From NCBI GenBank assembly GCA_938023835.1, contig CALJDF010000145.1:1-36374 (forward strand): a stretch of 36,374 nt of DNA. The letters are read 5' to 3'. This stretch comes from an uncultured Alphaproteobacteria bacterium. Lineage in GTDB: Bacteria > Pseudomonadota > Alphaproteobacteria > SHVP01. The translations under genes and the position numbers were made by a program. This document shows positions 1,397 to 36,374 of this stretch, in pieces. Positions within the stretch are counted from its first letter, which is position 1; each line of letters opens with the position of its first letter. Under the pieces are notes generated by a model. It was not told where the DNA came from. It did no database searches and worked only from the letters and a program-made list of their open reading frames with translations.

Positions 1397-1419
1397 GATC
1401 CACAACCACACAGCCCATC

Positions 1420-1845: not shown

Positions 1846-2141
1846 CCCAGCAGCGACTGCAGCTTCATTGCGATTCCCATACTGCCGTCGATCTTGAGTT
1901 TCCCCATCATAAATGCAGTGGTCGGGTTGAGATCGCCATCGACAAGTTTCAAGAAATTATCCAGCGTTATAGTAATCGTGCAGTCCGCTTCGCGATCTTC
2001 GTTCGTGACGGTGTTCGGCGTGCTTTCGCCATCGAAGAAGATGATGCCGTCGTCGCCAAAGTCGAACTTGATCGTGGCATCGATGCCAGCATCATCACCG
2101 ACCCGGGTACGAAGACCTTCGGTTACCTGATCCAAATCCAT
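1842..2141 (-). CDS. SCP2 sterol/lipid-binding domain protein (99 aa)
   Basis: ADCTITITLDNFLKLVDGDLNPTTAFMMGKLKIDGSMGIAMKL; strong RBS AAGGAG upstream of ATG 2141. Confidence 0.92.
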   Translation of the reverse strand: MDLDQVTEGLRTRVGDDAGIDATIKFDFGDDGIIFFDGESTPNTVTNEDREADCTITITLDNFLKLVDGDLNPTTAFMMGKLKIDGSMGIAMKLQSLLG

Positions 2142-2223
2142 AGTATTCTCCTTGCCCGGATAGTGCGGTGCGACGTGCCAAGGTAGCAAACCGTGCGTAA
2201 TCAAACTACGGCGAGGTAATGAG

Positions 2224-3045: not shown

Positions 3046-3057
3046 GCCGCGTTTTGC

Positions 3058-4848: not shown

Positions 4849-4867
4849 GGCGTTTGTCCTCGTGGGA

Positions 4868-7207: not shown

Positions 7208-7256
7208 AAATCCACCCTGCCGCTATAGCGGCCATTTAGTCGCACGTGATTGATTG

Positions 7257-8393: not shown

Positions 8394-8421
8394 CGAGGTT
8401 CTCCTTGTGTGTATGCCACGG

Positions 8422-15110: not shown

Positions 15111-16070
15111 CTAAACTGATTCGGCACCGTAATAGAGTGTGACTGTGTGAGTCGCCTCAGCGAAAAACAGCCAGCGCTCGACGACAATGCCGAGGTGACC
15201 GGACACGGCAGCAATGACGGCCGCCACAATCGCCGCGCCGCCTCCAGATCCCAATCCGACGATCAGCGCGAGTACCGGCACGCCTAACCCTGCGACGTAC
15301 GACACTCGTCGCAATTTGTCTCCGTGTTTTCGGGCGACGTGATAGCCCATTTCCTTTTGCAAGTAGTTTGGTTCGGTGTGGGGAAGATCGAGAGACCGTA
15401 CACGAGCGCCTTGGTCCATGCCCGTTGCTGACGCGGCCGTCACGGTCGGCAAGGCATTGCGAATACCCCGCCAGTACCGAGCCTTGATGACAAACGCGAC
15501 AATCAACCCGACCAACGCGACAGCAGAAACGAAACCTGCGGTCGCCCCTGTGATTGCTCCGATAGCGCCGAGCAGGAGAGCGCCACTTGCAAAAGACAAT
15601 GACAGATACCCTGTCGACACATCGCGTCGAAACCACTGAGGAATAGGTTTGAGACTGGCGTAGATCATCGACGTCGAGAACACGGTCGCGATGCAAAGGA
15701 GGCCCGTTGCCACCGCAAGAAGGCCTACGATCGGGCCGGGGTTCTGTGCGTCCGTCACGAAGAACAACCAGCCCAAAGCGAAAAGACCGGATGGGCCGTA
15801 CGTCGCGATCGCCAAAACGCCTTCGCGCGACAACCAAGACGACCGCCATTGGGTCAAGGCCTTGAGAAATCGTTCCGGATGACCGAGGTGCAGCAACGAA
15901 GAAAGCAACCCCAAGGTAACCAAGCCGAATGCAATGACGAACGAGGGCCACGTGAACCATGGATCAACGGATAAACGACCGATCAAGGCGAGAACCGACA
16001 TGAGAAAAAGCATGCCGTAGCCGGTCCCCGATGAAACCGTGAAGAAGATGACGGAATAAGCCGGATGCAC
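15111..16070 (-). CDS. soeC: DmsC/NrfD-like membrane anchor of the sulfite:quinone oxidoreductase
   Basis: HPAYSVIFFT, SLLHLGHPERF, SSWLSREG, ERWLFFAEA; multiple TM helices; GTG start. Confidence 0.9.
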   Translation of the reverse strand: MHPAYSVIFFTVSSGTGYGMLFLMSVLALIGRLSVDPWFTWPSFVIAFGLVTLGLLSSLLHLGHPERFLKALTQWRSSWLSREGVLAIATYGPSGLFALGWLFFVTDAQNPGPIVGLLAVATGLLCIATVFSTSMIYASLKPIPQWFRRDVSTGYLSLSFASGALLLGAIGAITGATAGFVSAVALVGLIVAFVIKARYWRGIRNALPTVTAASATGMDQGARVRSLDLPHTEPNYLQKEMGYHVARKHGDKLRRVSYVAGLGVPVLALIVGLGSGGGAAIVAAVIAAVSGHLGIVVERWLFFAEATHTVTLYYGAESV

Positions 16071-16088
16071 GTTGCGTCCCGAAACTAC

Positions 16089-16814
16089 TTAGGAGAGGAG
16101 ACGATCAACCCACTGGAGGAACTTGCCCTCCACCGAGTCGGCCGTTGCGTTGAGGGGGCTTTGTTGCGACCGATAAGTTCGCGGCGGCAGGTACCGATTG
16201 ACGGGCGCATAGTCTAACTCAGGCATCAAAGGCCGCCCGCCCCGATCAGCGACCAAACGACTGACATCGGACTCCGGGTCGGCTAGGTCACCGAAATGCC
16301 GGGCACTCACCGGGCACGTCGAAACGCACGCCGGCACACGCTGCGCCTCCTCCAGATTCTGATTGTAGATTCGGTCAATGCACAGGGTGCATTTCTTCAT
16401 CACACCTTCGTTCGCATCGTACTCCCGCGCCCCGTAGGGACATGCCCAAGAGCACAACTTGCACCCGATGCATTTGTCCTCGTCGACAAGAACAATGCCG
16501 TCTTCTTCGCGTTTATACGATGCGCCCGTGGGGCAAACCGTAACGCAAAGGGCGTTGTCACAGTGGAGACACGACCTCGGAAAGTGTACCGTTCTTCCCT
16601 TACCGTGGGTGTCCGCTTCAAAGCTATGAACCCGGTTGAACCAGACGCCGTCGGGTTCCGCGCCGTAAGGATCTGTATCGGTCAGCGGCGCCGCAAATCC
16701 GCCACTGTTCCATTCCTTACAATTGACGGCACAGGCGTGACACCCGACGCAGGTATCCAAATCGATCACGAGACCCAACTTGCGGGCCGGCGCTTTGCTC
16801 GGAAGGTCGGTCAT
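16089..16814 (-). CDS. soeB: 4Fe-4S iron-sulfur subunit of the sulfite dehydrogenase
   Basis: IDLDTCVGCHAC, CLHCDNALCVTVCP, CIGCKLCSWACP, KCTLC..PACVSTCP. Its ATG overlaps the soeA stop (ATGA). Confidence 0.92.
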   Translation of the reverse strand: MTDLPSKAPARKLGLVIDLDTCVGCHACAVNCKEWNSGGFAAPLTDTDPYGAEPDGVWFNRVHSFEADTHGKGRTVHFPRSCLHCDNALCVTVCPTGASYKREEDGIVLVDEDKCIGCKLCSWACPYGAREYDANEGVMKKCTLCIDRIYNQNLEEAQRVPACVSTCPVSARHFGDLADPESDVSRLVADRGGRPLMPELDYAPVNRYLPPRTYRSQQSPLNATADSVEGKFLQWVDRLLS

Positions 16815-19654: not shown

Positions 19655-19721
19655 AAAAACCTGAAGAAGCGAGGAGGTGCGCGCGGTAGAAACGCGCGAT
19701 GCTGGAAGGGTCTGCCCTTTT

Positions 19722-19746
19722 ATTATGCGTCGCTCCAGCGCATAAT
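19722..19746. promoter_or_regulatory. Inverted repeat ATTATGCG-N9-CGCATAAT in the divergent soeA/tauE promoter region (candidate operator)
   Basis: Perfect 8-bp AT-rich arms lying near the middle of the ~155-bp divergent intergenic region. Confidence 0.5.
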
Positions 19747-19810
19747 CCAAATCCAGCTTGTAGTTCCTCGTAGCCCTGCGTCCGGCCTGGGACGTCCGGC
19801 AGGCTTGCCG

Positions 19811-20728
19811 ATGCAAATCTATTTTCCGATCGCCGAGATCTCTCTCAACATCTTCCTGGTCTTGGGGATGGGCGGCGGAGTCGGTTTTCTTTCGGGCCTG
19901 TTTGGGGTCGGCGGCGGGTTCTTGATGACACCGCTGCTGATCTTCATCGGAGTGCCACCCGCTGTCGCTGTGGCCACCGAAGCCAACCAAATTGTGGCCG
20001 CGTCGGTGTCTGGGGTTATCGCCCATTGGCGACGTAGCAACGTCGACATCAAGATGGGCCTCATCTTGGTGATCGGTGGCTTTGCTGGCTCCACCGTCGG
20101 GTCGTTCCTATTCAAACTGCTGCGCGAAATGGGCCAGATTGACCTGGTGATTTCGCTGTCCTTTGTCCTTTTCCTCGGCGTGGTGGGATCGCTCATGGTG
20201 GTCGAGAGCGTCCGACTCATCATGCGCTCCCGCAAGGGCGGTTATCGCAAAAAGGCCCATCAGCACTACTGGGCTCACGGCTTGCCCTTCAAGATGCGAT
20301 TCCAGAGGTCCAAGCTCTACATAAGCATCATTCCGCCCATTTTGGTCGGGTTCTTCGTCGGACTCTTGGCCGCGATCATGGGTGTCGGCGGCGGCTTCAT
20401 CATGATCCCGGCAATGATCTACCTCCTGGGTATGCCGACCTCGGTGGTCGTTGGCACCTCGCTCTTTCAGATCATTTTCGTGACCGCCAACGTCACGTTC
20501 TTCCACTCGATTAACACGCAAACGGTGGATGTCGTGCTGGCCGTCCTCCTGCTGGCCGGTGCGGTCATCGGCGCGCAGTTCGGCGCGCGGGTCAGCGGTA
20601 TGTTGCGAGGCGAGCAACTACGCGCCCTCTTGGGCGTGATCGTCCTGGCGGTATGCGCCAAGCTGATCGTCGATCTTATTTTTGAACCCGAAGACCTATT
20701 CTCAATCGGTCGGGCAATCGCAGAATGA
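19811..20728 (+). CDS. TauE/SafE (TSUP) family membrane transporter, putative sulfite/sulfur-compound exporter
   Basis: MQIYFPIAE start; duplicated GxxGVGGGF motifs (GLFGVGGGFLMTP and AIMGVGGGFIMIP); VVVGTSLFQ. Confidence 0.9.
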   Translation: MQIYFPIAEISLNIFLVLGMGGGVGFLSGLFGVGGGFLMTPLLIFIGVPPAVAVATEANQIVAASVSGVIAHWRRSNVDIKMGLILVIGGFAGSTVGSFLFKLLREMGQIDLVISLSFVLFLGVVGSLMVVESVRLIMRSRKGGYRKKAHQHYWAHGLPFKMRFQRSKLYISIIPPILVGFFVGLLAAIMGVGGGFIMIPAMIYLLGMPTSVVVGTSLFQIIFVTANVTFFHSINTQTVDVVLAVLLLAGAVIGAQFGARVSGMLRGEQLRALLGVIVLAVCAKLIVDLIFEPEDLFSIGRAIAE

Positions 20729-26355: not shown

Positions 26356-26601
26356 TTACACGGTCAGATCGACGAATTGGCCCAAACCAGGCGGTGCAGA
26401 TCGTTCGTCACCCGGCCGGTCGAAGGATCGCCCAGCGTTTTGCTCAGCGGCCTCTCCGGTCTGATGACGATTCTGCGACGCCAGAAGGTCGGCCGTTTGC
26501 CGAACTTCAGCAGCTGCCTTGAGAGAGCTATCAAATCCGCCAGGCTGCGATGCTTGCTTTAGCATCGCAGTAGCCAACTCAAGAGCAGGCACGCTTTCCA
26601 T
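26356..26601 (-). CDS. Small protein (81 aa), YjfB-like putative motility-associated protein
   Basis: RBS GAAAGAGG, its own terminator, N-terminal 'ATAMLKQA' helix and C-terminal G.G..VD.. motif (GLGQFVDLTV). Confidence 0.6.
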   Translation of the reverse strand: MESVPALELATAMLKQASQPGGFDSSLKAAAEVRQTADLLASQNRHQTGEAAEQNAGRSFDRPGDERSAPPGLGQFVDLTV

Positions 26602-26710: not shown

Positions 26711-27982
26711 TCAATCCGTGGCTTGGCGAGCCACGTCGTCGCTGGGCCGAACGTCCCGAGCCCGACGGTAAATAAGAAGCGCCACAATCTGAAGGGCTGC
26801 CAGAAAGCCGAACATCGCCCGATAGGCGGCCTCAGGCGTTTCACCGGATTCGGTCATAAAGCTACCGATGATGGCGCCGGTCGCCCCCTGAATGATCGCG
26901 GCGCCTAGAAAAACGGAGGTGTTGTTGGTGGTCATGCCGCGACCAACCAAGTGTTCTGGAAAAATGGCCCGCCCGTGGGTCGTAATAATGACCGTGTACC
27001 CACTGATGAAACCAAAGCTGATAAAAACTGTTGTAACGACCCCCAACGACAGGTCTGGCACAAGCGCGACCACCAAGAGGAGCGCGATCGATGTTGCCAC
27101 ACCGAACACAATCAAGCCTTTGCGGGTGTCCAGAATGCGGTCCAGGCGCCCATAGGTTAGATGACCCAAGACCTGACCCAGGGTCATCAATAGCAATATG
27201 TTGCCGCGCCCAACCGGGCCAAGCCCATGGACCTCGGCGAGATAGGGACCGCCCCAAAGCGCCGTGATCGCGAGGACGGCGCCATAGCCCACCGAGTTCA
27301 CCGCAACGATAAACTTGAGCTGCGGATTGCGCATAACATCGCCTAGCCCTTTGAAGACCTGACGCAATCCTTCCGGCCTTCGAGCGTAATAGGCATGGCC
27401 GGGCGGGGCATCGCGGACAACCCAAAAAGCGGCTACTCCGAAGAGCAGCGTTACCCCTGCCATCAGAAAGAACGCGCTACGCCACCCTACGGCTTCCGAT
27501 ACCGCGGCAAGCGGCGTTGTCGCCAACAAAGCGCCCAACGTTCCCATCGCCACAAAGAACGAAGCAATTGCGGCGAAGCGGTCTGGTGGAAACCATCGTG
27601 TCGCAACGACCAATGACCCCATCAGGATGCTCGCCGTGCCCATCCCCATCATGGCGCGCCCGATCGTTAGCCCGACAACGGTATCGGATGCGGCAAAAAC
27701 AAAAGCCCCGGCAACAGCAAACACCAGGAGCGCTGGCACGACTTGGCGCGGGCCGAAACGGTCCAGCAAAATGCCGACCGGGATTTGAAACAATGCGAAA
27801 GAGAAGAAGAAGGCGCTAGAAAGCGCGCCCATGGACTCCGGCCCGATGCCGGTTTCGGCCATGATATCTGGCGCGATCACGCCGGTTGAAACGCGATAGA
27901 AGTGGGCCAGCACATAGATCGCGCATAAGCCGGCGATGATCGGCACCGCGCGACGCAGATTTGACGAGGACGGCGTCACCAC
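26711..27982 (-). CDS. Major facilitator superfamily transporter
   Basis: About 12 hydrophobic helices; motif A GILLDRFGPR; RWFPPDRFA; GWRSAFF. Confidence 0.92.
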   Translation of the reverse strand: MVTPSSSNLRRAVPIIAGLCAIYVLAHFYRVSTGVIAPDIMAETGIGPESMGALSSAFFFSFALFQIPVGILLDRFGPRQVVPALLVFAVAGAFVFAASDTVVGLTIGRAMMGMGTASILMGSLVVATRWFPPDRFAAIASFFVAMGTLGALLATTPLAAVSEAVGWRSAFFLMAGVTLLFGVAAFWVVRDAPPGHAYYARRPEGLRQVFKGLGDVMRNPQLKFIVAVNSVGYGAVLAITALWGGPYLAEVHGLGPVGRGNILLLMTLGQVLGHLTYGRLDRILDTRKGLIVFGVATSIALLLVVALVPDLSLGVVTTVFISFGFISGYTVIITTHGRAIFPEHLVGRGMTTNNTSVFLGAAIIQGATGAIIGSFMTESGETPEAAYRAMFGFLAALQIVALLIYRRARDVRPSDDVARQATD

Positions 27983-28034
27983 GCTGGCGTCTTCTTTCTT
28001 GCCGCGAATAAGCGCCGCGGCGACCGTTGGGTTG

Positions 28035-29633
28035 CTAGTCGAGGCCGAGCGAGCCCGGGTTCATCAATCGGGCCGGATCAACATAGTCTTTGATCGCTTC
28101 GAGAAGCGCGTAGGTATCGGGGTTGCGCCCTTCTTTGTATCGATAGGCCTTGCCGATCTGGAAATGTACCGCACCGAGTTCTTTGAACAGATCCGCGAGG
28201 CCGCTCCTGAGTTGGGTGACCGCGCGTCGTGCGGCTTCATCCGTGGGGAAGACTTTGAGCTTCGCGACGTAATCGTCTTCAAGGTAGCGCTCGTGATAGA
28301 GGTGGCGTGAGTCTTCCCAGAAGAAAACGGGCTCCATCAAAAAGGTTTGCTGGGCCACGGCGCACATCAGATAGCCCCATTCGATGCCATGCTGATCGAC
28401 CAACTCGGCGTGTTCTTCGAAATAATCATGAACTGACTGAATCAGGTTCGCAGCGCGGGAATGCGGCACCAGCGCATGAATCGGCACCCAACGCTGCCCC
28501 TCGGGGCCCAACATACTGTTCGGCGGGACGAAAGGTGTGGCGCGCATGATCTGCGGCAGACTCGCCTGGATCTCACGACCCTTGGCGTCGGCACAAATGC
28601 CCTTGGCTTCGGCAACAACCGACTCGACCGTTTTCGCATCGTAGCCGTCGATCACCAGGTGGACCGAGTACTCGACCCCCTCGAACATCCGCCGACCACT
28701 TGCGGCAACCTTGGCCGCTCCCTTGACCCCGTCGAGAATCGATTTGCCGGACCGGGCCACGTTGGCAAGCCGCTTGATATCGGTGAGCAGCCCCTCGCGC
28801 TTCAGGCGTTGGCCCTGGAGGTAGGGATCGAACGCAAAACACTCCGCCGCCAACCCGCGGCGCGAGACTTCGGACATTGCGGCTGTCACCCCATCGTAGT
28901 CGTCAAACGCGAACGATAGGTAGCGGGTCTCGGTCGGGAACGGGATGAGACGCAACACAACTTTGGTTTTGAAGCCGAGCGCGCCCGCGTCCGAAAGAAA
29001 TAGCCCGGTTAGGTCCGGACCGTAGCTGCGAAAGAAGGGTGAAGGATTGAATGGTGTTGCCCAAGAACCGGTCTTAAGAATCCGGCCATCGGCCAAAACA
29101 ACTTCAAGTCCGAGACAGCTGTCGGCGGCTGTGCCGTGGATGCCGGATCCAAAAAAGATGCTGTTCTGCGACATTGCACCGCCAACGGTGGAGTACATGC
29201 CGGACAGAGCGCCAAAGTACGGCGCCCGCAAGCCCTTTTCCTTTAGCGCATCATATACCTGTAGCCAGGTGCAGCCACTTTCGACGACGGCGTACATGTC
29301 TTCGGCGTTAATTTCGACAATGCGATTGAGGCGCTGCAGGTCGGCAACAATCGATTTCGGGGATACCGGCAGGTAACCGTCGGTGTAGGACAACCCGCCG
29401 CCACGCGGAATAACAGCGTAGCCCTCGCTCGTTGCCGCCTTCGCGGCTTCAGCAAGTTCTTCCGGTGTGCCAGGCTGAATGACGAACGCTGCCGGGTCGG
29501 CCTCCCGAAACACGTCGCTCGAGAAAAACTGACGATCCTCAAGATCAGTCAAGACATGGTCGTTACCCAAAACCTGGCGCAGACGGGCCTCAAGGGCGGT
29601 GGCCGATCCATCGGCTTCAGCGACGTTACTCAT
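28035..29633 (-). CDS. FAD-binding oxidoreductase, VAO/GlcD/D-lactate dehydrogenase (type 4) family
   Basis: VIPRGGGLS, STVGG, GPDLTGLF..GALG, terminal DPARLMNPG; RBS GGAGAGAGG. Confidence 0.88.
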   Translation of the reverse strand: MSNVAEADGSATALEARLRQVLGNDHVLTDLEDRQFFSSDVFREADPAAFVIQPGTPEELAEAAKAATSEGYAVIPRGGGLSYTDGYLPVSPKSIVADLQRLNRIVEINAEDMYAVVESGCTWLQVYDALKEKGLRAPYFGALSGMYSTVGGAMSQNSIFFGSGIHGTAADSCLGLEVVLADGRILKTGSWATPFNPSPFFRSYGPDLTGLFLSDAGALGFKTKVVLRLIPFPTETRYLSFAFDDYDGVTAAMSEVSRRGLAAECFAFDPYLQGQRLKREGLLTDIKRLANVARSGKSILDGVKGAAKVAASGRRMFEGVEYSVHLVIDGYDAKTVESVVAEAKGICADAKGREIQASLPQIMRATPFVPPNSMLGPEGQRWVPIHALVPHSRAANLIQSVHDYFEEHAELVDQHGIEWGYLMCAVAQQTFLMEPVFFWEDSRHLYHERYLEDDYVAKLKVFPTDEAARRAVTQLRSGLADLFKELGAVHFQIGKAYRYKEGRNPDTYALLEAIKDYVDPARLMNPGSLGLD

Positions 29634-29721
29634 ATCGGGCCTCTCTCCGGCGCGCTTGGCGCCAACTCCATTCGTATTCGTTGTGCCAGACCGCGGCGGC
29701 GCGCAGCCGTTCTAGGTGACG

Positions 29722-31275
29722 CTACAACGCACCTTTTTTTGCGCGGTCCCGCAACTCGGTCTTGAGTATCTTGCCGCCGGCATTCCGCGGCAAAACATCC
29801 AAGTAGGCATAAGACTTGGGAATCTTGTACTTGGCCAAATTCTCACGGCAGTAGGCGTCGAGATCAGCTTCGGTGACCTCACTGCTTGTCACCACGATGG
29901 CTTTGACAGCCTCACCCCATTGCTCGTCTGGGACTCCGATCACGCTCGCTTCGGCAACGGCCGGATGCGCCACCAAGACCTCTTCGATTTCACGGGGGAA
30001 GACGTTGACCCCGCCCGTAATGATCAGGTCTTTCTTGCGGTCCACCAGATAGAGATAGCCCTCGTCGTCGTGGCGGCCCATGTCGCCCACCGTGCACCAA
30101 CCGTCGTCGGTCAACGCTTCGGCTGTCGCCTCGGGGTTTTCCCAATAGCCGTTGAACAAGAGCGGCGAGCGACAAAACAACTCCCCGACATCCCCTTGCT
30201 GGACTTCAGCACCCTTTTCGTCGCGCAAGGAGACTTCAACCGTGGCATAGGGCAATCCAACGCATTGCTGTTTTCGTAGCTGATCGGGCGGTCTCAGGCT
30301 GGTAACGAATCCGCCTTCGGTCGATCCATACGTCTCATGCAAGAGCCCCTCGCCAAAGTAATCGACGATCTTTTCTTTGGTGTCCTGCAGCAACGGCGCG
30401 GCGTTCGAAATGATGGCCCGCAGCGTGTCCGGCCGATGCTTGTCGAGGACCTTTTTTTCCAGTGCGAACATCCGATGGAAATGCGTCGGCACAAAGAACG
30501 TGTTTGTCAGGTGCATCTCGGAGATTTTTCGAAGTACCACCTCGGGCTCGTACTTCGGCAATATTTCACAGAAGCCGCCAAAAAAGATCGGTGCCATCGC
30601 AAACGCAAATCCCGCACCGTGGAATAGCGGCGCGAGCGCCAACGCGCGATCATCCGGCCCGTAGCACCCGAACTCGACGCCCATCGTGTAGAAGGCAAGG
30701 GTTCGCGATCGATGCGACAACAGGCATCCCTTGGGCTTGCCCGTCGTGCCGGAGGTGTAGGGAATGCAGAAGACATCCCACTCCTCGAGCGGCACAGTCG
30801 GTTGTTCCGGTTTGGCGCCGGCGATCCAATCGTCATAGTCCTTGCCAATGACGATGATGCGCTCCACGGTTTCGAGCTTTGCCGCTCGGGCAACATCTTC
30901 GACACTCTCGTGGACAAACAACACTTTGGCCCCGGAGTCATTGCAAATATGCTCAACCTCGGGCGGCGTTACCGACGGCGGCACCATCGCAGCCGCGACA
31001 CCGGCATCGGCCAGCCCCGCGACAATCTCAAGAAACTCGATACAGTTGGGCGCGAATAGCGCGGCGTGATCGCCCTTCTTCAGCCCAAGGCCATGAATTG
31101 CCGCAGTTGCAACCCGGTTGAACCGTTCAACGAGGGCTGTGTATGTGAACTGACGTGGTCCCTGCGCCAAGGCCACCTTGTTCGGCGTCCGGCGCGCGGA
31201 CGATCGCACGCCGGTGGAGAGCAGAATGGGCCGGAAGTTATCGGGACGTCCCGAGATCTGGCCCTCAAGCGACAT
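29722..31275 (-). CDS. ANL-family AMP-forming acyl-CoA synthetase
   Basis: [42 protein letters not shown]. Confidence 0.94.
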
Positions 31276-31894
31276 TGCTGAGTTCGACCTTCCATGAGTC
31301 CAATACTTCGTCGGTGGTCAGGACGCGGGCGAAAAAGAACCCCATGGTCATCAGCGCGACCTCGGAACGGTCATCCTCAACCTCACCCACCGCATCACTG
31401 ACGACGAAGCAGCGGAAATCCCGCTGGCAAGCATCGCGAACCGTGGTCTCGACGCACATGTTGGTGGTCACACCGCAAAACACGAGGCTCTTGATCTTCA
31501 TCGCCGCAAGAACGGACTCAAGCTGCGTTGAGTAGAACGCACTCGGTCGGTTCTTTTGGATAACGGCATCGCCCGGCTGTGGCGTCAGGCTATCGATGAT
31601 CTCGGCGTCCCAGGTGCCAAGCGCGCATAAACCAACATCTTTCAACGCCGGCATGATCTCATTGACGATAAACCCGCCATCTTTGAAATCAGGCTGATAG
31701 ACGAACTGGGTATAGATGACCGGTACGCTGGCTTTGCGCGCCGCCGCCACCATGGTCTTGCACCCTGGCTCCGCTGCCGCCAACCGCTCCCACGGAAAGC
31801 CAAGCTTTTCCATCCGCCCGCCGGACCGACAGTAGCTGTTCTGCATATCCACGACGACGAGGGCGGTTTTGTCGGTGCCCAATTGCATTGTCAT
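31265..31894 (-). CDS. Isochorismatase-family cysteine hydrolase (RutB/NicF-like amidase), copy 2
   Basis: Asp-Lys-Cys triad: [25 protein letters not shown]. Confidence 0.92.
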
Positions 31895-31906
31895 TTCTGT
31901 ATCCCC

Positions 31907-32536
31907 CTAGGCCGCGTTGCTCAGCTCGACACCCCATTCGTCGAGCACGTCGTTGACGTTCATCACTCGGGCAAAGAGATACTCCATCGCCTTCAGTGCG
32001 GTTTGGCCACGGAAATCATCAACCTCGCCCACCGCATCACGCACGACAAAGGTACGGAAGTCGCGCTGCGACGCGTCCCGGACGGTCGTTTCCACGCAGA
32101 TGTTGGTCGTGACCCCACAGACCACGACATTTTCGATGTCCTGCGATCGGAGGTAGGATTCCAGCCGCGTCGAATAGAAAGAACTTGGCCGATTCTTTTC
32201 GATGATGATGTCGGTGTCTTCAGGCTTCATATCGGGATGCAGTTCGGCATCCCACGTGCCTGAGACACAAAGGTTCACTTCCTTGAGGCCAGGCATGATC
32301 TCTTCGATCTGTACGCCACCGTCGCGAAAGTCCGGCTCGTAAACATACTGGGTCCAAAACACAGGTACGTCGGCCTTGCGCGCGCCGGCAACAAGACGTT
32401 GCACACCGGGCGACGCAGCGGCGAGTTTCTCCCAGTCGAATCCCGATTGGGCCATTGACCCCTTTGCGTCGAGGAAGCCGTTTTGCATGTCTACAACGAT
32501 GAGGGCGCAGTTCTCTTTTTGGAGTTGGATCGTCAT
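31907..32536 (-). CDS. Isochorismatase-family cysteine hydrolase (RutB/NicF-like amidase), copy 1
   Basis: VVDMQN, EKNRPSSF, GVTTNICVETT; RBS AGGGAG. Confidence 0.92.
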   Translation of the reverse strand: MTIQLQKENCALIVVDMQNGFLDAKGSMAQSGFDWEKLAAASPGVQRLVAGARKADVPVFWTQYVYEPDFRDGGVQIEEIMPGLKEVNLCVSGTWDAELHPDMKPEDTDIIIEKNRPSSFYSTRLESYLRSQDIENVVVCGVTTNICVETTVRDASQRDFRTFVVRDAVGEVDDFRGQTALKAMEYLFARVMNVNDVLDEWGVELSNAA

Positions 32537-32559
32537 CGTGTTCTCCCTGGAGGTGTCGG

Positions 32560-33537
32560 TTAGCGCGTCTTCCGCTTCTTCGCCGTCTTGCGCTTCGCTG
32601 GTGTGCGCTTGGCCGGCTTGGCCTTCGATGTCCGTTTTTTGACGGTTGCACTCAATCGCCGTAGCGACTTCATCTTTGACCGCTCGTCGAGTTTGAAAAT
32701 GCGAATAGCGTTGTCGCGCATGATCTTTTGGTAAGACTCGGGGCGGAAGTTCAGGTCGCCGACCTCCCTCACCGCACGGATGGGGTCGATCACCGGCCAG
32801 TCCGTCCCGAACAGGAACTTATGCGAGCCGTAGCTATTGGCGTAGTGCACCATTTGCTTAGGCCAGTGCTTCGGCGCATAGGCGTCGCCGCCGATAAAGA
32901 TGTTCTCGTGTTTCCACGCCATCGAGATCATCTCGTCGGTCCACGGCACGCCCAAGTGGATGCCGAGCAAACGAAGTTCCGGATAAAGAATCGATATGCG
33001 ATCAAGGGTGATCGGACGACCGACAGACGGTAGCCGGCGATCCCGCTGATACACCAAGTTGTGGCCGACCTGCATCATGATCGGAATATCGAGCTCGATG
33101 CATTTCGAATAGATCGGGAAAACGTACGGATGGTCGGGCGCCAGGTCGAACCAGTGCGGATAATAATGCGCACCGACAAACCCGAGTTCGTTTACCGCGT
33201 ATTCCAACTCGGCAAGCTGCTGCATGCCAAGAGTCGGGTCGACGCCGGCCAGGCCCGAAAAGCGATCCGGGTAGCGCTGGCACACCTGGTGAACGCGCTC
33301 ATAGGAAATGTGAAAGGAGCCTTTCACGTTCATATCGCCGGCGCGCGTGGCGATCAGGAGAGCGTGTTCAATGCCCGCCTCGTCCATCATGCGAAGATAC
33401 TCAGGCACCCCAATGCCTTTGCGCATCTTGGGGCTCATCCGGACTTGTTTCTTGAAGTGGTTATCGATCCCGGTCTGGTCGTTGCGAACTTCGACCGGCG
33501 TGTAGAGATTACAAACGATATCGATATGGCCCGACAT
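32560..33537 (-). CDS. Amidohydrolase_2 family protein with a basic C-terminal tail
   Basis: YPDRFSGLAGVDP, ELGFVGAH, IHLGVPW, FLFGTDWP, IMRDNA; RBS GGAAGG. Confidence 0.88.
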   Translation of the reverse strand: MSGHIDIVCNLYTPVEVRNDQTGIDNHFKKQVRMSPKMRKGIGVPEYLRMMDEAGIEHALLIATRAGDMNVKGSFHISYERVHQVCQRYPDRFSGLAGVDPTLGMQQLAELEYAVNELGFVGAHYYPHWFDLAPDHPYVFPIYSKCIELDIPIMMQVGHNLVYQRDRRLPSVGRPITLDRISILYPELRLLGIHLGVPWTDEMISMAWKHENIFIGGDAYAPKHWPKQMVHYANSYGSHKFLFGTDWPVIDPIRAVREVGDLNFRPESYQKIMRDNAIRIFKLDERSKMKSLRRLSATVKKRTSKAKPAKRTPAKRKTAKKRKTR

Positions 33538-33699
33538 GCCTTCCCCTTCCCTAGATGGCGTCCGGTTTTGCGTCCCGGAACCTGTTCGTTATTGTCCGGT
33601 TAATCTACCGACTGGCCCCGCGCCAAGCAACGCGTCTTCTCTTGCCCCGGCACCCCGATATGACAGAATGCGGGAACTTTTCCCTATGAATTGGACCGT

Positions 33700-35115
33700 A
33701 TGAGCGACCTGCGAACATTTCTCAATGACGAGGCGCCGCATGTTTGGCGGCCGGAGGGCGCCGTGTCGCTGGTGCAAGAGATCACGGCGCTGCAGCAGGC
33801 GCTGGATGCGCGCCAGCAGTTCCCGGTCATCGAGATCGCCCAGCCACAGGCAGCCGACGGTGCGATCAATCCGATTTCCGTGGTGTGCAACCTCACCGCG
33901 AGTCGGGAACTCACCGCGCGAGCGCTTGGCATCCAAGACCACCGCGACTTTGCCGCGACCTACGCGCAGCGGACGGCCAATCCGATCGCACCGATAAGCG
34001 TCACCCGTGACGACGCGCCGGTGCAACAAATTGTTCTGCAAGGCGACGAGTCGTCTCTCCTCGATCTTCCGGTCTTGACGCAACACGCGCTTGATCCCGG
34101 CCCTTATCTCACCGCCGCTCATGCGACCACCTATGATCCGGACACCGGCGTCGACAACACGGCCATTCAGCGTTGCTGGGTCAAGGCGCCACGGCGGATG
34201 TCGTATTACCCCTATCCCGCGTCGCACAACACGCGAAACCTGCGCAAGTTCTGGGGCAAGGGCGAAGCCTGTCCCGTGGCGTTCTGGATCGGGCACCACC
34301 CCAAGGTTCTTCTCGGCACCCAAGCCAAACTGGCTTACCCGGAGAGCCATTGGTCAGCGTGCGGCGGCCTCCTCGGTGAACCGCTGCGTTTGGTACCGAG
34401 CATCACGCATGGCGACAAGATCATGGTCCCGGCCGACGCCGAAATCGTCATCGAAGGCTGGGCTCCTGCGGACATTTGGGAGGCCGACGGTCCATTCGGC
34501 GAATACACCGGTTACATGGGCGCCCAAGTTGCCGCCCCGGTGTGCGAGGTGACCTGTATCACCCGACGCGAGAAGGCGATCTATCACGACTACGGATCGG
34601 GCCACGCCGACATGCTGGTGCCCGACAACATGGTCATGGAGGGCAAGATCTACGGCATGATGAAGCCAATTGCACCGTCTGTGCGGCGGGTTCACGTGCC
34701 GGTATCGGGCCGTCGTTTCCACGCTTATGTCTCGTTCGAAAACCCCGGTATCGGCGAGGTGCGCGATGCCTTGATGGCCGCGTTGGCATACCGGCGAACC
34801 AAAGCGATCATTGCCGTCGACGACGATATCGACTTGTTCTCCGACAGCGACATTATGTTTGCCCTGGCCACCCGCGTGCAGTGGGAACGTGACGTCATCA
34901 CGGCCTCGGGCCTGCAAGGCTCCCTAATGGACCCCTCGTTGGCGCGCGGCGCCAAGACGGTCCAAAAAGCCGGGATCGACGCGACCCTAGCGCCCTCCGA
35001 AGTGCCGGGCGCGCCACGGCCCGTCGCCCCGCGCAATAGTGTTGGCGAGGCTGCACTCGACGCCGCGATCGCACGCCTCACCGGGCTCGACACCACCGGC
35101 TGGCCGGAACTTTGA
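33700..35115 (+). CDS. UbiD-family (prFMN-dependent) (de)carboxylase
   Basis: LPVLTQH..DPGPY, N....R (NTAIQR), VPADAEIVIEG, GPFGEYTGY, VDDDID...FALATR, K.GIDAT. Start is ATG 33700, or possibly TTG 33691. Confidence 0.92.
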   Translation: MSDLRTFLNDEAPHVWRPEGAVSLVQEITALQQALDARQQFPVIEIAQPQAADGAINPISVVCNLTASRELTARALGIQDHRDFAATYAQRTANPIAPISVTRDDAPVQQIVLQGDESSLLDLPVLTQHALDPGPYLTAAHATTYDPDTGVDNTAIQRCWVKAPRRMSYYPYPASHNTRNLRKFWGKGEACPVAFWIGHHPKVLLGTQAKLAYPESHWSACGGLLGEPLRLVPSITHGDKIMVPADAEIVIEGWAPADIWEADGPFGEYTGYMGAQVAAPVCEVTCITRREKAIYHDYGSGHADMLVPDNMVMEGKIYGMMKPIAPSVRRVHVPVSGRRFHAYVSFENPGIGEVRDALMAALAYRRTKAIIAVDDDIDLFSDSDIMFALATRVQWERDVITASGLQGSLMDPSLARGAKTVQKAGIDATLAPSEVPGAPRPVAPRNSVGEAALDAAIARLTGLDTTGWPEL

Positions 35116-35116
35116 G

Positions 35117-35323
35117 ATGAGTAGCGACAACACCATTCGGCTTCGCACTCATTCGCCCGCCGGCGAAAAACGCGGCAACACATCGTGGGTCCAGTGCGCC
35201 GCCTGCGAGGGCTGGTTCCATGCGACCGAAGACATCATCAATCGTGCCGTCGTGACGCTGCACTGCAACCATTGCCACACCGAATTCCTACCGGCGGACG
35301 CGAAGAAGATCGTTCTCGCCTAG
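35117..35323 (+). CDS. Small zinc-ribbon protein (68 aa)
   Basis: ATG 1 nt after the UbiD stop; WVQCAACEGWFH...LHCNHC with two CxxC knuckles. Confidence 0.75.
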   Translation: MSSDNTIRLRTHSPAGEKRGNTSWVQCAACEGWFHATEDIINRAVVTLHCNHCHTEFLPADAKKIVLA

Positions 35324-35393
35324 CGACCTCGTTCGCCAAACGCCGCGCCGCCGGATACCCTAGCTCTTGCGAAGAGAAGAACTGGGTAACAGC

Positions 35394-36014
35394 ATGAAGA
35401 TCCTCTACACGCCGATGCCCGGGTTGGTGCACCGGGTCGAAGTCGTCGCCCGCGAGTTGGGGCTCTATGACGCGATTACATGGGAGCGGGCCATGCCCTA
35501 TGACCGGCCCAGCCATCTGACCGACCAGAACCCCTTGAGCAAAGTGCCGACCCTGATCACCGACGACGGGGTCGCCCTGTTCCCCGGCATGGTGATCTAC
35601 GAGTATTTGGAATCACTGGCTGGACCGAAGCTCTACCCCACGAAACCCGCCGAACGCTGGCCCGCGATGCACCTGCTCAGCCTCGGCGAAGGCCTATGGG
35701 ACATGACGGTGCAGTGGAACAACGAGCGCAAGCGGCCGGAGGCCGAGCAATCCCCCGAACAACGCGCACGCTATCTCGCGGCGATCGAACGGGTTCTTGA
35801 TCGCCTTGAAGCGCTCGCGCCGTCGTTTTCCGGATTTCACATCGGCCACATCGCCGTTGCAGGCTGTTTCAGCTTTTTCGACTTCCGCCGCGCACGCGAC
35901 CTTGAGACCAACGAGTTTGGCAGCGTGATGCCCGACTTCTACGAAGGCCGCCCCACCCTGACCAACTGGCTCACCGAGGTGCGCAAGCGTCCCTCTTTTG
36001 CGCCGACCGACTAG
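35394..36014 (+). CDS. Glutathione S-transferase fold protein (atypical active site)
   Basis: QNPLSKVPTLITDDG cis-Pro loop, VIYEYLE, helical C-domain, ends RKRPSF..T. Confidence 0.8.
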   Translation: MKILYTPMPGLVHRVEVVARELGLYDAITWERAMPYDRPSHLTDQNPLSKVPTLITDDGVALFPGMVIYEYLESLAGPKLYPTKPAERWPAMHLLSLGEGLWDMTVQWNNERKRPEAEQSPEQRARYLAAIERVLDRLEALAPSFSGFHIGHIAVAGCFSFFDFRRARDLETNEFGSVMPDFYEGRPTLTNWLTEVRKRPSFAPTD

Positions 36015-36026
36015 GAGATCAGACGC

Positions 36027-36374
36027 ATGAGAAAAATCCTTGTCCTCGTCCCCTTTCCGATGACGCCCGAGGAACTGGCCAATCGTCAGGCCCAGTCCAA
36101 AGCGGTCAAACTCTCGCCCGATATCGAGATCGACTACCGCCCGGTTCGCGCCGCGCCGCGTACCTATACGAGCCAGCAAGATTACGTGCTGGCCGACATG
36201 TCTTTGCTTGAGGCGGGCCGCTCGGCCCAGGAAGACGGCTATGGCGCGGTATGCATCGACACGGTGAGCGACTCCGGCGTGTCAGCGCTGCGGTCGGTCC
36301 TCGACATTCCGGTCATTGGCCCGGGCCGCACCATGTCCACGACCGCGCTGATGCTGGGCGACCGTTTCTCGATG
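36027..36374 (+). CDS. Asp/Glu/hydantoin racemase family protein, 5' part only
   Basis: Not in the ORF track. Manual translation gives MRKILVLVPFP...AQEDGYGAVCIDTVSDSGVSALRSVLDIPVIGPG..., open to the window end; RBS AGGAG. Confidence 0.85.
   Translation, partial: MRKILVLVPFPMTPEELANRQAQSKAVKLSPDIEIDYRPVRAAPRTYTSQQDYVLADMSLLEAGRSAQEDGYGAVCIDTVSDSGVSALRSVLDIPVIGPGRTMSTTALMLGDRFSM

What the first reader, a model, noticed from the sequence alone, without database searches (positions are those of the whole stretch)
26711..36374. Unassigned divergent catabolic cluster centred on a UbiD, possibly for an N-heterocyclic or amide-bearing acid
Seen in the sequence: the left arm has amidohydrolase_2, two cysteine amidases, a CoA ligase, an FAD oxidase and an MFS transporter. 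The right arm has UbiD, a Zn-ribbon protein, a GST-fold protein and a racemase-fold protein. The arms share a ~160-bp divergent promoter region with no regulator between them. Established: pyridine pathways use several of the same families (PicC amidohydrolase_2 decarboxylase, NicF/PicF isochorismatase amidase, NicE/PicG racemase-fold maleate isomerase), and some UbiD enzymes act on CoA-activated substrates (phthaloyl-CoA decarboxylase). Inference: I do not recognise this combination as a named pathway. It may activate, decarboxylate, oxidise and doubly de-amidate an unknown heteroaromatic or xenobiotic acid. No ring-cleaving oxygenase and no ubiX are visible in the window.
Basis: partly seen in the sequence, partly recalled or inferred. 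Interest (0 to 1): 0.8.

Follow-up and report, generated by a model that had tools for sequence, protein, structure and literature searches.

The report
Orphan aromatic-acid breakdown cluster around UbiD
This is a real, conserved and still unassigned gene cluster of uncultured aquatic bacteria, built around a two-part decarboxylase and an iron oxidase, that probably breaks down a nitrogen-bearing aromatic acid whose identity is unknown.

Summary

The window is a whole contig, and the cluster runs on over two more contigs of the same genome. These add a second racemase-fold gene, a membrane protein, a LysR regulator, a heme-oxygenase-like diiron oxidase (HDO), an SDR and a DOPA-dioxygenase-family protein.

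The gene set is syntenic in relatives with 69-97% UbiD identity. 16 of 17 genomes of the order hold the UbiD, against 1 of 401 sampled from the phylum, the window's own.

Across more distant loci the steady partners of the UbiD are a 68-aa four-cysteine protein and an HDO-SDR pair. A second lineage joins UbiD and the small protein to amidohydrolase_2, isochorismatases and a CoA ligase.

A complex model puts the small protein on the UbiD catalytic loop, as in the solved VdcCD enzyme (score 0.75, best control 0.07).

The cluster is no orthologue of the furan (HmfF), lumazine (XCDC/DHLI) or Nic/Pic pathways. Their defining residues are missing.

The substrate is unknown. My best reading is a nitrogen-bearing (hetero)aromatic acid.

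The parts
26711..27982 (-). MFS transporter, the last gene of the left arm
   Evidence: PF07690 at 157.5 bits. Only weak matches to anion:cation symporter subfamilies. Found in close relatives, but absent from L014, L015 and L018.
28035..29633 (-). VAO/PCMH-superfamily FAD flavoprotein
   Evidence: PF01565 at 120.6 bits and PF02913 at 27.5 bits. Solved relatives align only over the FAD domain, residues 9-251. Present in 9 of 9 close loci with both flanks.
29722..31275 (-). AMP-forming acyl-CoA ligase
   Evidence: PF00501 at 256.8 bits and PF13193. No NCBIfam model reaches its cut-off. Best solved relatives are a fatty-acyl/feruloyl-CoA synthetase at 253 bits and malonyl-CoA synthetase. Present in 9 of 9 close loci.
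31265..31894 (-). Isochorismatase-family cysteine hydrolase 1
   Evidence: PF00857 at 155 bits. RutB 132 bits and BiuH 110 bits, both below cut-off. Best solved relative is RutB at 102.6 bits. Asp, Lys and Cys motifs are present.
31907..32536 (-). Isochorismatase-family cysteine hydrolase 2
   Evidence: PF00857 at 159 bits. RutB 114 bits, below cut-off. Asp, Lys and Cys motifs are present.
32560..33537 (-). Amidohydrolase_2 protein without the H-x-H metal motif
   Evidence: PF04909 at 113 bits, with the match starting at profile position 65. Best solved relative is the uncharacterised BB4693, 3IRS, at 69 bits. The N-terminus reads I-D-I-V-C-N where the family has H-x-H, and the strand-8 Asp (F-G-T-D-W-P) is kept. 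Homologues at 48-49% identity lie in type D loci.
33538..33699 (.). Divergent intergenic region with conserved blocks, a candidate promoter and operator
   Evidence: An alignment of 7 close loci shows invariant blocks between the two start codons. The sigma-70 consensus scan found nothing there: 1 site in the whole region against 2.6 expected.
33700..35115 (+). UbiD-family (prFMN-dependent) decarboxylase of a distinct clade
   Evidence: PF01977, PF20696 and PF20695. TIGR00148 at 209.8 bits against a cut-off of 244.85, and no equivalog reached. Best solved relative is HmfF, 6H6V, at 200 bits. It is the only UbiD found in this incomplete genome. Relatives carry it beside a canonical UbiD. The start at ATG 33700 comes from the alignment with relatives.
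35117..35323 (+). 68-aa four-cysteine zinc-ribbon-like protein, the predicted small subunit of the UbiD
   Evidence: C27, C30, C50 and C53 are invariant, as are K18, G20, N21, W24 and W33, in 22 sequences. No Pfam, NCBIfam or solved-structure match by sequence. Complex model: 0.75 against a best control of 0.07.
35367..36014 (+). GST-fold protein, an optional member
   Evidence: GST_N_2, GST_N_3, GST_N and GST_C_2. Present in 4 of 9 close loci with both flanks, and in no distant locus.
36027..36374 (+). N-terminal 116 aa of racemase-fold protein 1, cut by the contig end
   Evidence: PF01177. The full 262-aa form is on C13, followed by a paralogue. The closest solved relatives are hydantoin and allantoin racemases. 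Thr and Ser stand at the two catalytic Cys positions.

Best explanation
This is one catabolic island for a carboxylated (hetero)aromatic compound that carries amide or ureide nitrogen.

The enzymatic core is a two-subunit prFMN decarboxylase: the UbiD plus a 68-aa zinc-ribbon protein that sits on the catalytic loop, as VdcD does on VdcC. The cofactor comes from a ubiX gene elsewhere in the genome.

Proposed order of steps. Only the family assignments and the gene linkage are shown. The order and the substrates are inferred.
1. The MFS transporter takes up the anionic substrate.
2. The metal-motif-less amidohydrolase_2 protein and the two RutB/BiuH-like cysteine hydrolases open or trim an amide or ureide function. 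This releases ammonia and CO2 and exposes a ring carboxylate. It is the logic of the published lumazine route, where an amidohydrolase_2 enzyme makes xanthine-8-carboxylate for a UbiD.
3. The UbiD with its small subunit removes the ring carboxylate.
4. The diiron HDO and the adjacent SDR oxidise the decarboxylated ring.
5. The DOPA-dioxygenase-family protein cleaves the ring.
6. The CoA ligase, the VAO-type flavoprotein, the GST-fold protein and the cysteine-less racemase-fold pair handle side chains or ring-opened products.

A LysR regulator divergent from the HDO gene controls at least that part.
For: Families.

One unit rather than neighbours by chance:
- In close loci with both flanks, HDO, amidohydrolase_2, isochorismatase, CoA ligase, flavoprotein and racemase-fold genes are each present in 9 of 9.
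- In a separate UbiD lineage with another gene order (type D; L071, L093, L094, L100), the UbiD and small protein again stand with the amidohydrolase_2 homologue (48-49% identity) and a CoA ligase. L100 also holds two isochorismatases.
- Of 31 distant loci with at least 3.5 kb downstream, 26 hold the HDO and 26 the SDR.

Small subunit: the four cysteines are invariant in 22 sequences, and the gene starts 2 nt after the UbiD stop. The complex score was 0.75, 0.75 and 0.77 in three runs, against a best control of 0.07. Partner pLDDT was at least 86 and the runs agreed in their contacts. The tool's mark was reached by 58 of 80 solved complexes and 2 of 110 mismatched pairs. The interface covers UbiD residues 263-268 and 276-281, which flank the G-P-F-G-E loop. 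VdcD is a zinc ribbon with two CXXC motifs that binds the loops carrying VdcC's catalytic residues (PMC8379154, passages).

HDO: the carboxylate and histidine positions that align with CADD's motifs are invariant in 12 sequences.

Precedent for amidohydrolase_2 followed by UbiD/UbiX on an N-heterocycle: PMC12391406, sections 7, 8, 9 and 12 read.

Catabolic setting: transporters and LysR or GntR regulators are in every context.

Presence in RNA libraries: contigs of 148-250 nt lie on MFS, flavoprotein, CoA ligase, isochorismatase, amidohydrolase_2, UbiD and GST/racemase genes. All but one differ by 0-4 letters. They come from 4 runs of 3 studies.
Against: - No enzyme was assayed and no cultured carrier was found, so the substrate is a guess.
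- Several parts fit a plain phenolic acid just as well. These are the VdcD-like subunit, the flavoprotein whose nearest solved relatives oxidise phenols (FAD domain only), the CoA ligase nearest a feruloyl-CoA synthetase, the DOPA-dioxygenase-family protein, and the HpaE-like aldehyde dehydrogenases of distant loci.
- Distant loci keep UbiD, HDO and SDR without any amidase. Nitrogen may therefore belong only to this lineage's feed-in steps.
- The amidohydrolase_2 protein lacks the usual metal ligands, and the racemase-fold proteins lack the catalytic cysteines. Their chemistry cannot be read from their families.
- A like complex (VdcCD) is solved, so the complex model's pass may reflect likeness, not proof.
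- RNA libraries can contain DNA.
Confidence: 0.45

Rival explanations
1. The substrate is a nitrogen-free phenolic acid, of the hydroxy- or methoxybenzoate or phenylpropanoid kind. The UbiD and small subunit act like VdcCD. The HDO and SDR turn the resulting phenol into a catechol. An extradiol-type dioxygenase cleaves it. The amidases serve only conjugates or side reactions.
For: - The zinc-ribbon subunit is a trait of phenolic acid decarboxylases.
- The flavoprotein's nearest solved relatives are 4-phenol oxidases and p-cresol methylhydroxylase.
- The CoA ligase is nearest a feruloyl-CoA synthetase.
- A DOPA-dioxygenase-family gene lies downstream.
- Distant loci carry HpaE-like aldehyde dehydrogenases, VOC-fold proteins, dienelactone hydrolases, a tannase/feruloyl esterase and a curcumin-reductase-like protein.
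Against: - By sequence the UbiD is much nearer HmfF (200 bits) than VdcC (84 bits) or AroY (98 bits). The VdcC model scores 170 bits against a cut-off of 650.
- Five genes of this lineage's cluster belong to amide, ureide or hydantoin families.
- Type C loci carry an allantoinase/hydantoinase-like amidohydrolase and HutC-like regulators.
- The flavoprotein matches phenol oxidases only in the FAD domain.
Confidence: 0.22
2. The two arms are separate operons with unrelated tasks that are merely inherited side by side in this order.
For: - The full combination is seen only in one UbiD clade: 18 rows, SH-aLRT 99, in a quick tree.
- Those loci come from one uncultured order, so synteny among them could be shared ancestry alone.
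- Distant loci keep the UbiD without the left-arm genes.
Against: - Type D loci, in another UbiD clade and another gene order, again join UbiD and the small protein to the amidohydrolase_2 homologue and a CoA ligase. L100 adds two isochorismatases.
- The arms share one short intergenic region with conserved blocks.
Confidence: 0.12
3. It is a furan pathway. The UbiD is a 2,5-furandicarboxylate decarboxylase, as one source's automatic names say.
For: - One source names many homologues '2,5-furandicarboxylate decarboxylase 1'.
- HmfF is the nearest solved structure.
- A CoA ligase is present, as in the Hmf route. That feature of the Hmf route is recalled, not taken from a call.
Against: - The histidine reported as key for furan specificity in HmfF (PMC7976604, passage) aligns with Met308 here, next to an invariant Asp307.
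- No furoyl-CoA dehydrogenase-like molybdenum enzyme genes stand in the cluster.
- Another UbiD outside the known groups proved inactive on furan acids (PMC12391406, section 9).
Confidence: 0.04
4. UbiD, the small protein, HDO and SDR form a biosynthetic or housekeeping module, for instance for a quinone or cofactor precursor, not a catabolic one.
For: - The UbiD is nearly universal in the order: 16 of 17 genomes.
- The HDO's nearest solved relatives are biosynthetic: CADD 4-aminobenzoate synthase and PqqC.
Against: - Complete relatives also carry a canonical UbiD.
- The module always stands among transporters, LysR or GntR/UTRA regulators and hydrolases.
- The UbiD was found in no other of the 401 genomes sampled across the phylum.
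Confidence: 0.07

Closest known systems
VdcCD / ShdCD vanillate and 4-hydroxybenzoate decarboxylase (UbiD-type VdcC plus zinc-ribbon VdcD; PMC8379154)
   Same: A UbiD gene is followed at once by a gene for a small protein with two C-x-x-C motifs. The model places that protein on the loops around the catalytic glutamate.
   Different: The small proteins show no sequence similarity: the best solved-structure match has E = 0.1 and is unrelated. The VdcC model scores 170 bits against a cut-off of 650. No ubiX gene lies beside the UbiD in this genome.
HmfF, 2,5-furandicarboxylate decarboxylase (PDB 6H6V/6H6X)
   Same: It is the nearest solved UbiD, at 200 bits over residues 62-440. The G-P-F-G-E loop and the arginine of the I-x-R motif are shared.
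   Different: The furan-specificity histidine is replaced (Met308, beside an invariant Asp307). There are no other hmf-like genes. This clade has a small subunit and an HDO-SDR partner.
Lumazine/pterin degradation cluster I of Cupriavidus sp. LA-1 (DHLI amidohydrolase_2 isomerase, XCDC UbiD, UbiX; PMC12391406)
   Same: The logic is the same: an amidohydrolase_2 enzyme works on an N-heterocycle and a UbiD then removes the ring carboxylate. One DHLI subunit also lacks the two metal histidines. The like cluster on a Burkholderia plasmid also holds an Asp/Glu-racemase-family gene.
   Different: Against that plasmid cluster the UbiD is 33% identical and the amidohydrolase_2 protein 22-24%. The racemase-family proteins are unrelated in sequence. 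No molybdenum dehydrogenase, GTP-binding helper, pterin deaminase or adjacent ubiX is present here.
Nicotinate and picolinate pathways (PicC, NicF/PicF, NicE/PicG)
   Same: The same three superfamilies occur: amidohydrolase_2, isochorismatase-like amidase and racemase fold. An entry I recall as NicF (3UAO, listed only as 'putative isochorismatase') scores 79 bits with hydrolase 1.
   Different: The amidohydrolase_2 protein lacks H-x-H. The racemase-fold proteins lack both cysteines and are nearer hydantoin and allantoin racemases. RutB scores higher than that entry. These pathways have no UbiD, which is recalled knowledge.
Heme-oxygenase-like diiron oxidases (CADD, BesC, and the metal-free PqqC)
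   Same: The same fold family (PF14518/PF03070). The Glu/His, Glu and His/Asp/His positions that align with CADD are conserved.
   Different: Similarity is only 52 bits to CADD, and the CADD model scores 92.7 bits against a cut-off of 200. The known members I recall are biosynthetic. This one stands in a catabolic-looking cluster, always with an SDR and usually with a UbiD.

Membership tests
UbiD family (prFMN-dependent decarboxylases) | The three UbiD domains (N-terminal, Rift-related, C-terminal) | tested here: met
   PF20695, PF01977 and PF20696 all match. The N-terminal domain scores 21.4 bits, just under its cut-off of 24.3.
UbiD family (prFMN-dependent decarboxylases) | A UbiX flavin prenyltransferase is available | tested here: met
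   TIGR00421 at 233 bits at C135:1954-2499, not linked to the cluster. In type B loci ubiX lies divergent from the UbiD.
UbiD family (prFMN-dependent decarboxylases) | Catalytic Arg and Glu residues | tested here: inconclusive
   R161 and E271 are invariant in 21 sequences and align with the same residues of HmfF. The third residue of the classical motif was not mapped.
HmfF (2,5-furandicarboxylate decarboxylase) | The histidine that sets furan specificity (H296/H297) | tested here: not met
   It aligns with Met308. My count along the printed alignment puts the HmfF histidine at chain position 296.
HmfF (2,5-furandicarboxylate decarboxylase) | Company of hmf genes (furoyl-CoA dehydrogenase, adjacent ubiX-type hmfG) | tested here: not met
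   None is in the cluster. The rest of the genome was not searched for them.
VdcCD-type phenolic acid decarboxylase | VdcC orthology | tested here: not met
   NF041204 scores 170 bits against a cut-off of 650. PDB 7AE4 scores 84 bits.
VdcCD-type phenolic acid decarboxylase | A small zinc-ribbon subunit bound at the catalytic loops | tested here: met
   By analogy only. Two invariant C-x-x-C motifs. Complex score 0.75 against a best control of 0.07, with the interface at residues 263-281. No sequence similarity to any solved chain. Zinc binding was not tested.
Lumazine pathway (XCDC and DHLI) | Orthology to the cluster's UbiD and amidohydrolase_2 pair, with a molybdenum dehydrogenase and a GTP-binding helper | tested here: not met
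   33% and 22-24% identity to the proteins of the like cluster on a Burkholderia plasmid. The partner genes are absent here. The LA-1 sequences themselves were not at hand.
ACMSD/PicC-type metal-dependent amidohydrolase_2 decarboxylases | N-terminal H-x-H (or E-x-H) metal ligands | tested here: not met
   The site reads I-D-I-V-C-N, or I-D-A-V-V-N in type D. None of the 19 N-termini that could be read among 21 family ORFs has the motif. All 21 keep the F-G-T-D motif.
Hydantoin/allantoin racemase and maleate isomerase (two-cysteine Asp/Glu racemase superfamily) | The two catalytic cysteines | tested here: not met
   Against 3QVJ, the first Cys aligns with Thr (D-T-x-S-D-S-G) and the second with Ser (L-G-S-T-T-M). 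The Ser motif is in 29 of 29 family ORFs. My pattern for the Thr motif matched 18 of 29. The misses include the window's own protein, which shows the motif on inspection.
Isochorismatase-like cysteine hydrolases (RutB, BiuH, NicF, CSHase) | The Asp-Lys-Cys triad | tested here: met
   The motifs V-D-M-Q, K-N-R-P-S and T-T-N-x-C are in both proteins. No equivalog cut-off is reached: RutB 132 and 114 bits against 378.
Heme-oxygenase-like diiron oxidases (HDO) | Three-helix set of carboxylate and histidine metal ligands | tested here: met
   E84/E85, H90, E149, H179, D183 and H186 are invariant in 12 sequences and align with CADD's E-E...H, E-S-Q and E-A-D..H motifs. Metal content was not tested.

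The most novel reading that the evidence does not exclude
UbiD with its zinc-ribbon subunit, plus an HDO and an SDR, form a previously unrecognised module that is widespread in aquatic bacteria. In it a heme-oxygenase-like diiron enzyme takes the ring-activating role usually played by Rieske or flavin oxygenases. This would be the first catabolic HDO.

In this order the module is fed by a metal-motif-less amidohydrolase_2 enzyme, two cysteine hydrolases and a cysteine-less racemase-fold pair. Together they dismantle an abundant plankton-derived N-heterocycle, for example an acid derived from pterin, lumazine, flavin or purine.
Probability: 0.2. Interest if true: 0.8.

Novelty: new variant of a known kind. 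Interest (0 to 1): 0.58.

Why it matters
UbiD enzymes are sought as reversible (de)carboxylation catalysts, and few have known substrates. This clade is common in marine and freshwater metagenomes but was found here only in uncultured bacteria.

It offers three things to test:
- a second, sequence-unrelated family of zinc-ribbon activator subunits;
- a fixed partnership between a UbiD and a heme-oxygenase-like diiron oxidase, for which my one full-text search found no paper;
- enzyme variants whose family chemistry cannot apply, namely a racemase fold without cysteines and an amidohydrolase_2 protein without H-x-H.

If the substrate is a common plankton metabolite, the cluster marks an unrecognised route of dissolved organic nitrogen and carbon turnover. 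It would also give a testable function to a trait held by 16 of 17 genomes of an uncultured alphaproteobacterial order.

Tried and rejected
- Ubiquinone decarboxylase. Rejected: the equivalog model scores 90 bits against a cut-off of 788, and 4 of 5 complete relatives also hold a canonical-type UbiD.
- Orthology to the lumazine cluster. Rejected on identity and missing partner genes.
- Furan pathway. Rejected on the specificity residue and gene content.
- Nic/Pic analogies. Rejected on catalytic residues.
- Cultured carriers. None was found. The twelve genome loci all come from metagenome-assembled genomes. All 113 plasmid records with a match are below 60% identity, and the best listed are 32-36%.
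- Small protein against solved structures by sequence. Nothing meaningful: best E = 0.1, a PHD finger.
- ESM Atlas look-up of the HDO. It returned only PqqC/HDO-type clusters.
- Literature. UbiD with isochorismatase or hydantoin racemase gave 2 irrelevant papers. Of the 20 papers listed out of 48 for UbiD, heme-oxygenase-like and diiron, none holds both UbiD and heme-oxygenase-like. A search for 3IRS/BB4693 found nothing relevant. A search for furandicarboxylate decarboxylase in marine metatranscriptomes found nothing useful.
- Promoter scan. It gave 1 site in the region against 2.6 expected and none in the divergent gap. Terminator-like sites numbered 20 against 10.5 expected and were not interpreted.
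- Earlier notes of this scan. No look-alike of the UbiD or the HDO, and no note with these words.
- RNA contigs. Bins of the stretch without cover are not read as silence. Pieces at 30728-30760 and 34427-34461 are short conserved motifs on other organisms' contigs and were ignored.
- Tree. One row (L094) sits on a branch of length 5.84, probably the paralogous second UbiD of that locus. It was disregarded.

Full report
**What is there.** The window is a complete 36,374-bp contig (C145) of a metagenome-assembled genome of 2.53 Mb in 303 contigs, 87% complete.

From 26711 to the contig end lie ten genes in two divergent arms. The left arm, on the minus strand, holds:
- an MFS transporter;
- a VAO/PCMH-type FAD flavoprotein;
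- an AMP-forming CoA ligase;
- two isochorismatase-family proteins;
- an amidohydrolase_2 protein.

The right arm, on the plus strand, holds a UbiD, a small cysteine-rich protein, a GST-fold protein and the first 116 residues of an Asp/Glu/hydantoin-racemase-fold protein. Genes within each arm are 1-88 bp apart or overlap. The arms are separated by 153-162 bp. G+C content is even across the window, at 0.55-0.63.

Two details change. The conserved small protein is 68 aa (35117-35323), not the 94-aa ORF. The UbiD probably starts at the ATG at 33700.

**Beyond the window.** Contig C13 overlaps the last 390 bp of the window at 97% identity. It carries the full racemase-fold gene, a paralogue, a 236-aa membrane protein without a family, a LysR regulator on the other strand and, divergent from it, a heme-oxygenase-like protein (PF14518/PF03070).

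A same-genus relative, L008, is colinear with C145, then C13, then C176 in reverse. C176 adds an SDR and a DOPA-dioxygenase-family protein (PF08883), followed by a second MFS transporter, a metallo-beta-lactamase-fold protein and another SDR.

ubiX lies on C135 beside a TauD-family gene. The cluster's UbiD is the only UbiD-family gene found in this incomplete genome. Four of five near-complete relatives hold two, a canonical-type one at about 265 bits and this one. It is therefore an extra, specialised enzyme.

**Is it a unit?** A scan of species genomes gave 12 loci, all from uncultured Alphaproteobacteria, with 70-97% UbiD identity. In these loci:
- the amidohydrolase_2 gene is divergent from the UbiD in 11 of 12;
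- the racemase-fold genes follow in 11 of 12;
- the flavoprotein and the CoA ligase are each present in 10 of 12;
- the heme-oxygenase-like gene is present in 9 of 12.

The misses are contigs that end too early. The UbiD is in 16 of 17 genomes of the order, 10 of 11 among the high-quality ones. In a sample of 401 genomes of the phylum only the window's own genome holds it at E <= 1e-100.

A metagenome scan with a 21-sequence alignment gave 80 more loci at 57-96% identity. I counted over 91 loci. L019 was dropped because its UbiD is split, and the loci were not de-duplicated.
- Close loci (UbiD at least 69% identical) with both flanks, n = 9: HDO, amidohydrolase_2, isochorismatase, CoA ligase, flavoprotein and racemase fold 9 of 9 each; SDR 8; small protein 7 (short, and under-detected by my filter); DOPA-dioxygenase family 5; GST 4; LysR 3.
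- Distant loci (below 69%) with at least 3.5 kb downstream, n = 31: HDO 26; SDR 26; GntR/UTRA regulator 23; small protein 22; aldehyde dehydrogenase 15; methyltransferase 11; cyclic amidohydrolase 11; UbiX 6; amidohydrolase_2 4; CoA ligase 4; racemase fold 0; flavoprotein 0.

Pfam and NCBIfam scans of neighbours show three other contexts. The type labels are mine; type A is the window's own arrangement, seen in the close loci.
- Type B: ubiX and DUF2390 divergent from UbiD, small protein, SDR, HpaE-like aldehyde dehydrogenase, HDO, SDR, GntR and dienelactone hydrolase.
- Type C: VOC-fold protein, aldehyde dehydrogenase, a methyltransferase of about 375 aa and a TonB receptor, divergent from UbiD, HDO, SDR, GntR, a PvdO/EgtB-like FGE-sulfatase-domain protein, an allantoinase/hydantoinase-like amidohydrolase and a redoxin.
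- Type D (L071, L093, L094, L100): UbiD, small protein, a second UbiD, a TRAP transporter, a TPP enzyme, the amidohydrolase_2 homologue (48-49% identical), a CoA ligase and GntR. L100 also has two isochorismatases.

A quick tree of 73 UbiD rows was built after dropping 4 identical sequences and any ORF outside 400-560 aa. It puts type A in one clade (18 rows, SH-aLRT 99), B with D in another (88) and C in a third (90).

Two conclusions follow. The steady partners of this UbiD clade are the small protein and the HDO-SDR pair. The left-arm genes are tied to the UbiD in two separate lineages, which argues against mere adjacency.

**The small protein.** Twenty-two family members share invariant C27, C30, C50 and C53, and also K18, G20, N21, W24 and W33. 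No Pfam, NCBIfam or solved-structure match exists by sequence.

The published VdcCD structure shows VdcD as a zinc ribbon with two CXXC motifs. It binds the loops that carry VdcC's catalytic residues and is needed for activity (PMC8379154, passages).

A complex prediction with both alignments scored 0.75, 0.75 and 0.77, against a best control of 0.07. Partner pLDDT was at least 86 and the runs agreed in their contacts. The tool's mark was reached by 58 of 80 solved complexes and 2 of 110 mismatched pairs, and these counts hold only roughly with my own alignments. The interface lies at UbiD residues 134-137, 263-268, 276-281 and 415-421, around the G-P-F-G-E271 loop. The model supports binding but does not show it. 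Because VdcCD is solved, the pass may partly reflect likeness.

**The UbiD.** The nearest solved structure is HmfF (6H6V, 200 bits). Next come indole-3-carboxylate decarboxylase (102), AroY (98), E. coli UbiD (92), VdcC (84) and phthaloyl-CoA decarboxylase (63). No NCBIfam equivalog is reached. One source names homologues after the furan enzyme.

The histidine reported as key to furan specificity in HmfF (PMC7976604, passage) aligns with Met308. The neighbouring Asp307 is invariant in the clade. The enzyme is thus not an HmfF by that test.

**The published parallel.** Cupriavidus sp. LA-1 degrades lumazine in three steps. A molybdenum dehydrogenase acts first. A heteromeric amidohydrolase_2 isomerase then makes xanthine-8-carboxylate; one of its subunits lacks the two metal histidines. 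A UbiD/UbiX pair then yields xanthine. That UbiD was inactive on furan acids (PMC12391406, sections 7, 8, 9 and 12).

A Burkholderia plasmid carries such a cluster. Its UbiD is 33% identical to ours, its two amidohydrolases 22-24%, and its racemase-family protein is unrelated. The logic is shared, but membership is not.

**Odd family members.**
- The amidohydrolase_2 protein reads I-D-I-V-C-N where the family has H-x-H, and keeps the strand-8 aspartate. None of the 19 readable N-termini among 21 family ORFs has the histidines.
- Both racemase-fold proteins align best with hydantoin and allantoin racemases. They have Thr and Ser at the two catalytic cysteine positions. The Ser motif is in 29 of 29 family ORFs.
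- The two isochorismatase proteins keep the Asp-Lys-Cys motifs. They score best with RutB and BiuH but far below the cut-offs.
- The heme-oxygenase-like protein keeps the carboxylate and histidine positions that align with CADD's metal motifs, invariant in 12 sequences. I therefore call it an HDO.
- The flavoprotein matches solved enzymes only in its FAD domain. The top hits are lignin-phenol oxidising flavoenzymes (PMC7617285, search listing and start of abstract only).
- The CoA ligase is generic.

**How it most likely works.** The proposed order is uptake, hydrolytic opening or trimming of an amide or ureide function, prFMN-dependent decarboxylation by the two-subunit enzyme, oxidation by the HDO and SDR, ring cleavage by the DOPA-dioxygenase-family protein, and handling of the products by the CoA ligase, flavoprotein, GST-fold protein and racemase-fold pair.

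Shown: the families, the linkage, and the conservation of the key residues. Supported by a model: binding of the subunit. Inferred: the order of the steps, every substrate, and the roles of the unusual variants.

The main rival is a nitrogen-free phenolic acid route, which several components fit equally well. I put 0.45 on the main reading and 0.22 on the phenolic one.

**Occurrence and expression.** At least 14 DNA runs hold half or more of the sampled words of the stretch. The 20 runs that hold at least part of it, RNA runs included, come from 12 studies of seawater, marine and other aquatic metagenomes.

Contigs of four metatranscriptome runs from three studies, 148-250 nt long, lie on the MFS, flavoprotein, CoA ligase, isochorismatase, amidohydrolase_2, UbiD and GST/racemase genes. 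All but one differ by 0-4 letters. This shows presence in RNA libraries. Such libraries can contain DNA, so it is only a weak sign of transcription.

**Novelty.** A full-text search listed 20 of 48 papers for UbiD, heme-oxygenase-like and diiron, and none of the 20 holds both UbiD and heme-oxygenase-like. A search for UbiD with isochorismatase or hydantoin racemase gave nothing relevant. The scan's own notes hold no look-alike.

The cluster uses known enzyme families in a catabolic layout of a known general kind, so I class it as a new variant of a known kind. The UbiD-small subunit-HDO-SDR module and the two residue-variant enzymes are the parts most likely to yield new chemistry.

Noticed in passing
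G000 contigs C195, C289, C93, C268, C91, C237 and others; L113:6248-7372: The methyltransferase of about 375 aa that stands beside the UbiD in type C loci belongs to a family with 32 tblastn matches in this genome, the six best at 40-48% identity.
   Followed up: partly
window 35985-36374 and C13:1-390: The contig end overlaps the start of another contig at 97% identity, with differences clustered in the middle of the overlap. This looks like an assembly break at a strain variant, so the continuation may come from a close strain and not from the same cell line.
   Followed up: partly
window 32560-32640 (C-terminus of the amidohydrolase_2 protein): The protein ends in a tail of about 25 residues rich in Lys, Arg and Pro. 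Relatives differ in its length (299-330 aa in all), and the type D homologues (291 aa) lack it.
   Followed up: no
window 33538-33699: Three invariant sequence blocks stand in the divergent gap in 7 close loci. One pair looks like an imperfect inverted repeat. They are candidate regulator sites.
   Followed up: partly
window 15111-20026: Genes for a DMSO-reductase-family molybdoenzyme: a 1071-aa catalytic subunit, a four-cluster ferredoxin subunit and a DmsC-like anchor. They are unrelated to the cluster.
   Followed up: no
window 380-10140: A run of fatty-acid beta-oxidation-type genes: alpha/beta hydrolase, thioesterase, enoyl-CoA hydratase, two acyl-CoA dehydrogenases, a FadB-like fusion protein and a thiolase.
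   Followed up: no
window 26356-26601: An 81-aa ORF without any family lies between the GAF/HD-domain gene and the MFS gene. It is conserved at 78-91% identity in the closest relatives.
   Followed up: no
L069:4426-8601 and L049:80-4111: Five SDR genes stand in a row upstream of ubiX and DUF2390 in type B loci. Three more SDR genes stand downstream of the cluster in L008 (17536-19845).
   Followed up: no
L019 (whole locus): In this polished long-read contig the UbiD, the CoA ligase and one isochorismatase gene are each split into two frames. Assembly indels look more likely than decay, because a sister locus (L008) is intact.
   Followed up: no
L009:4229-6035, L010:4244-5983, L011:2515-4245: Three close relatives carry an extra gene of about 578 aa with two alpha/beta-hydrolase domains, between the flavoprotein and the CoA ligase. 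The window lacks it.
   Followed up: partly
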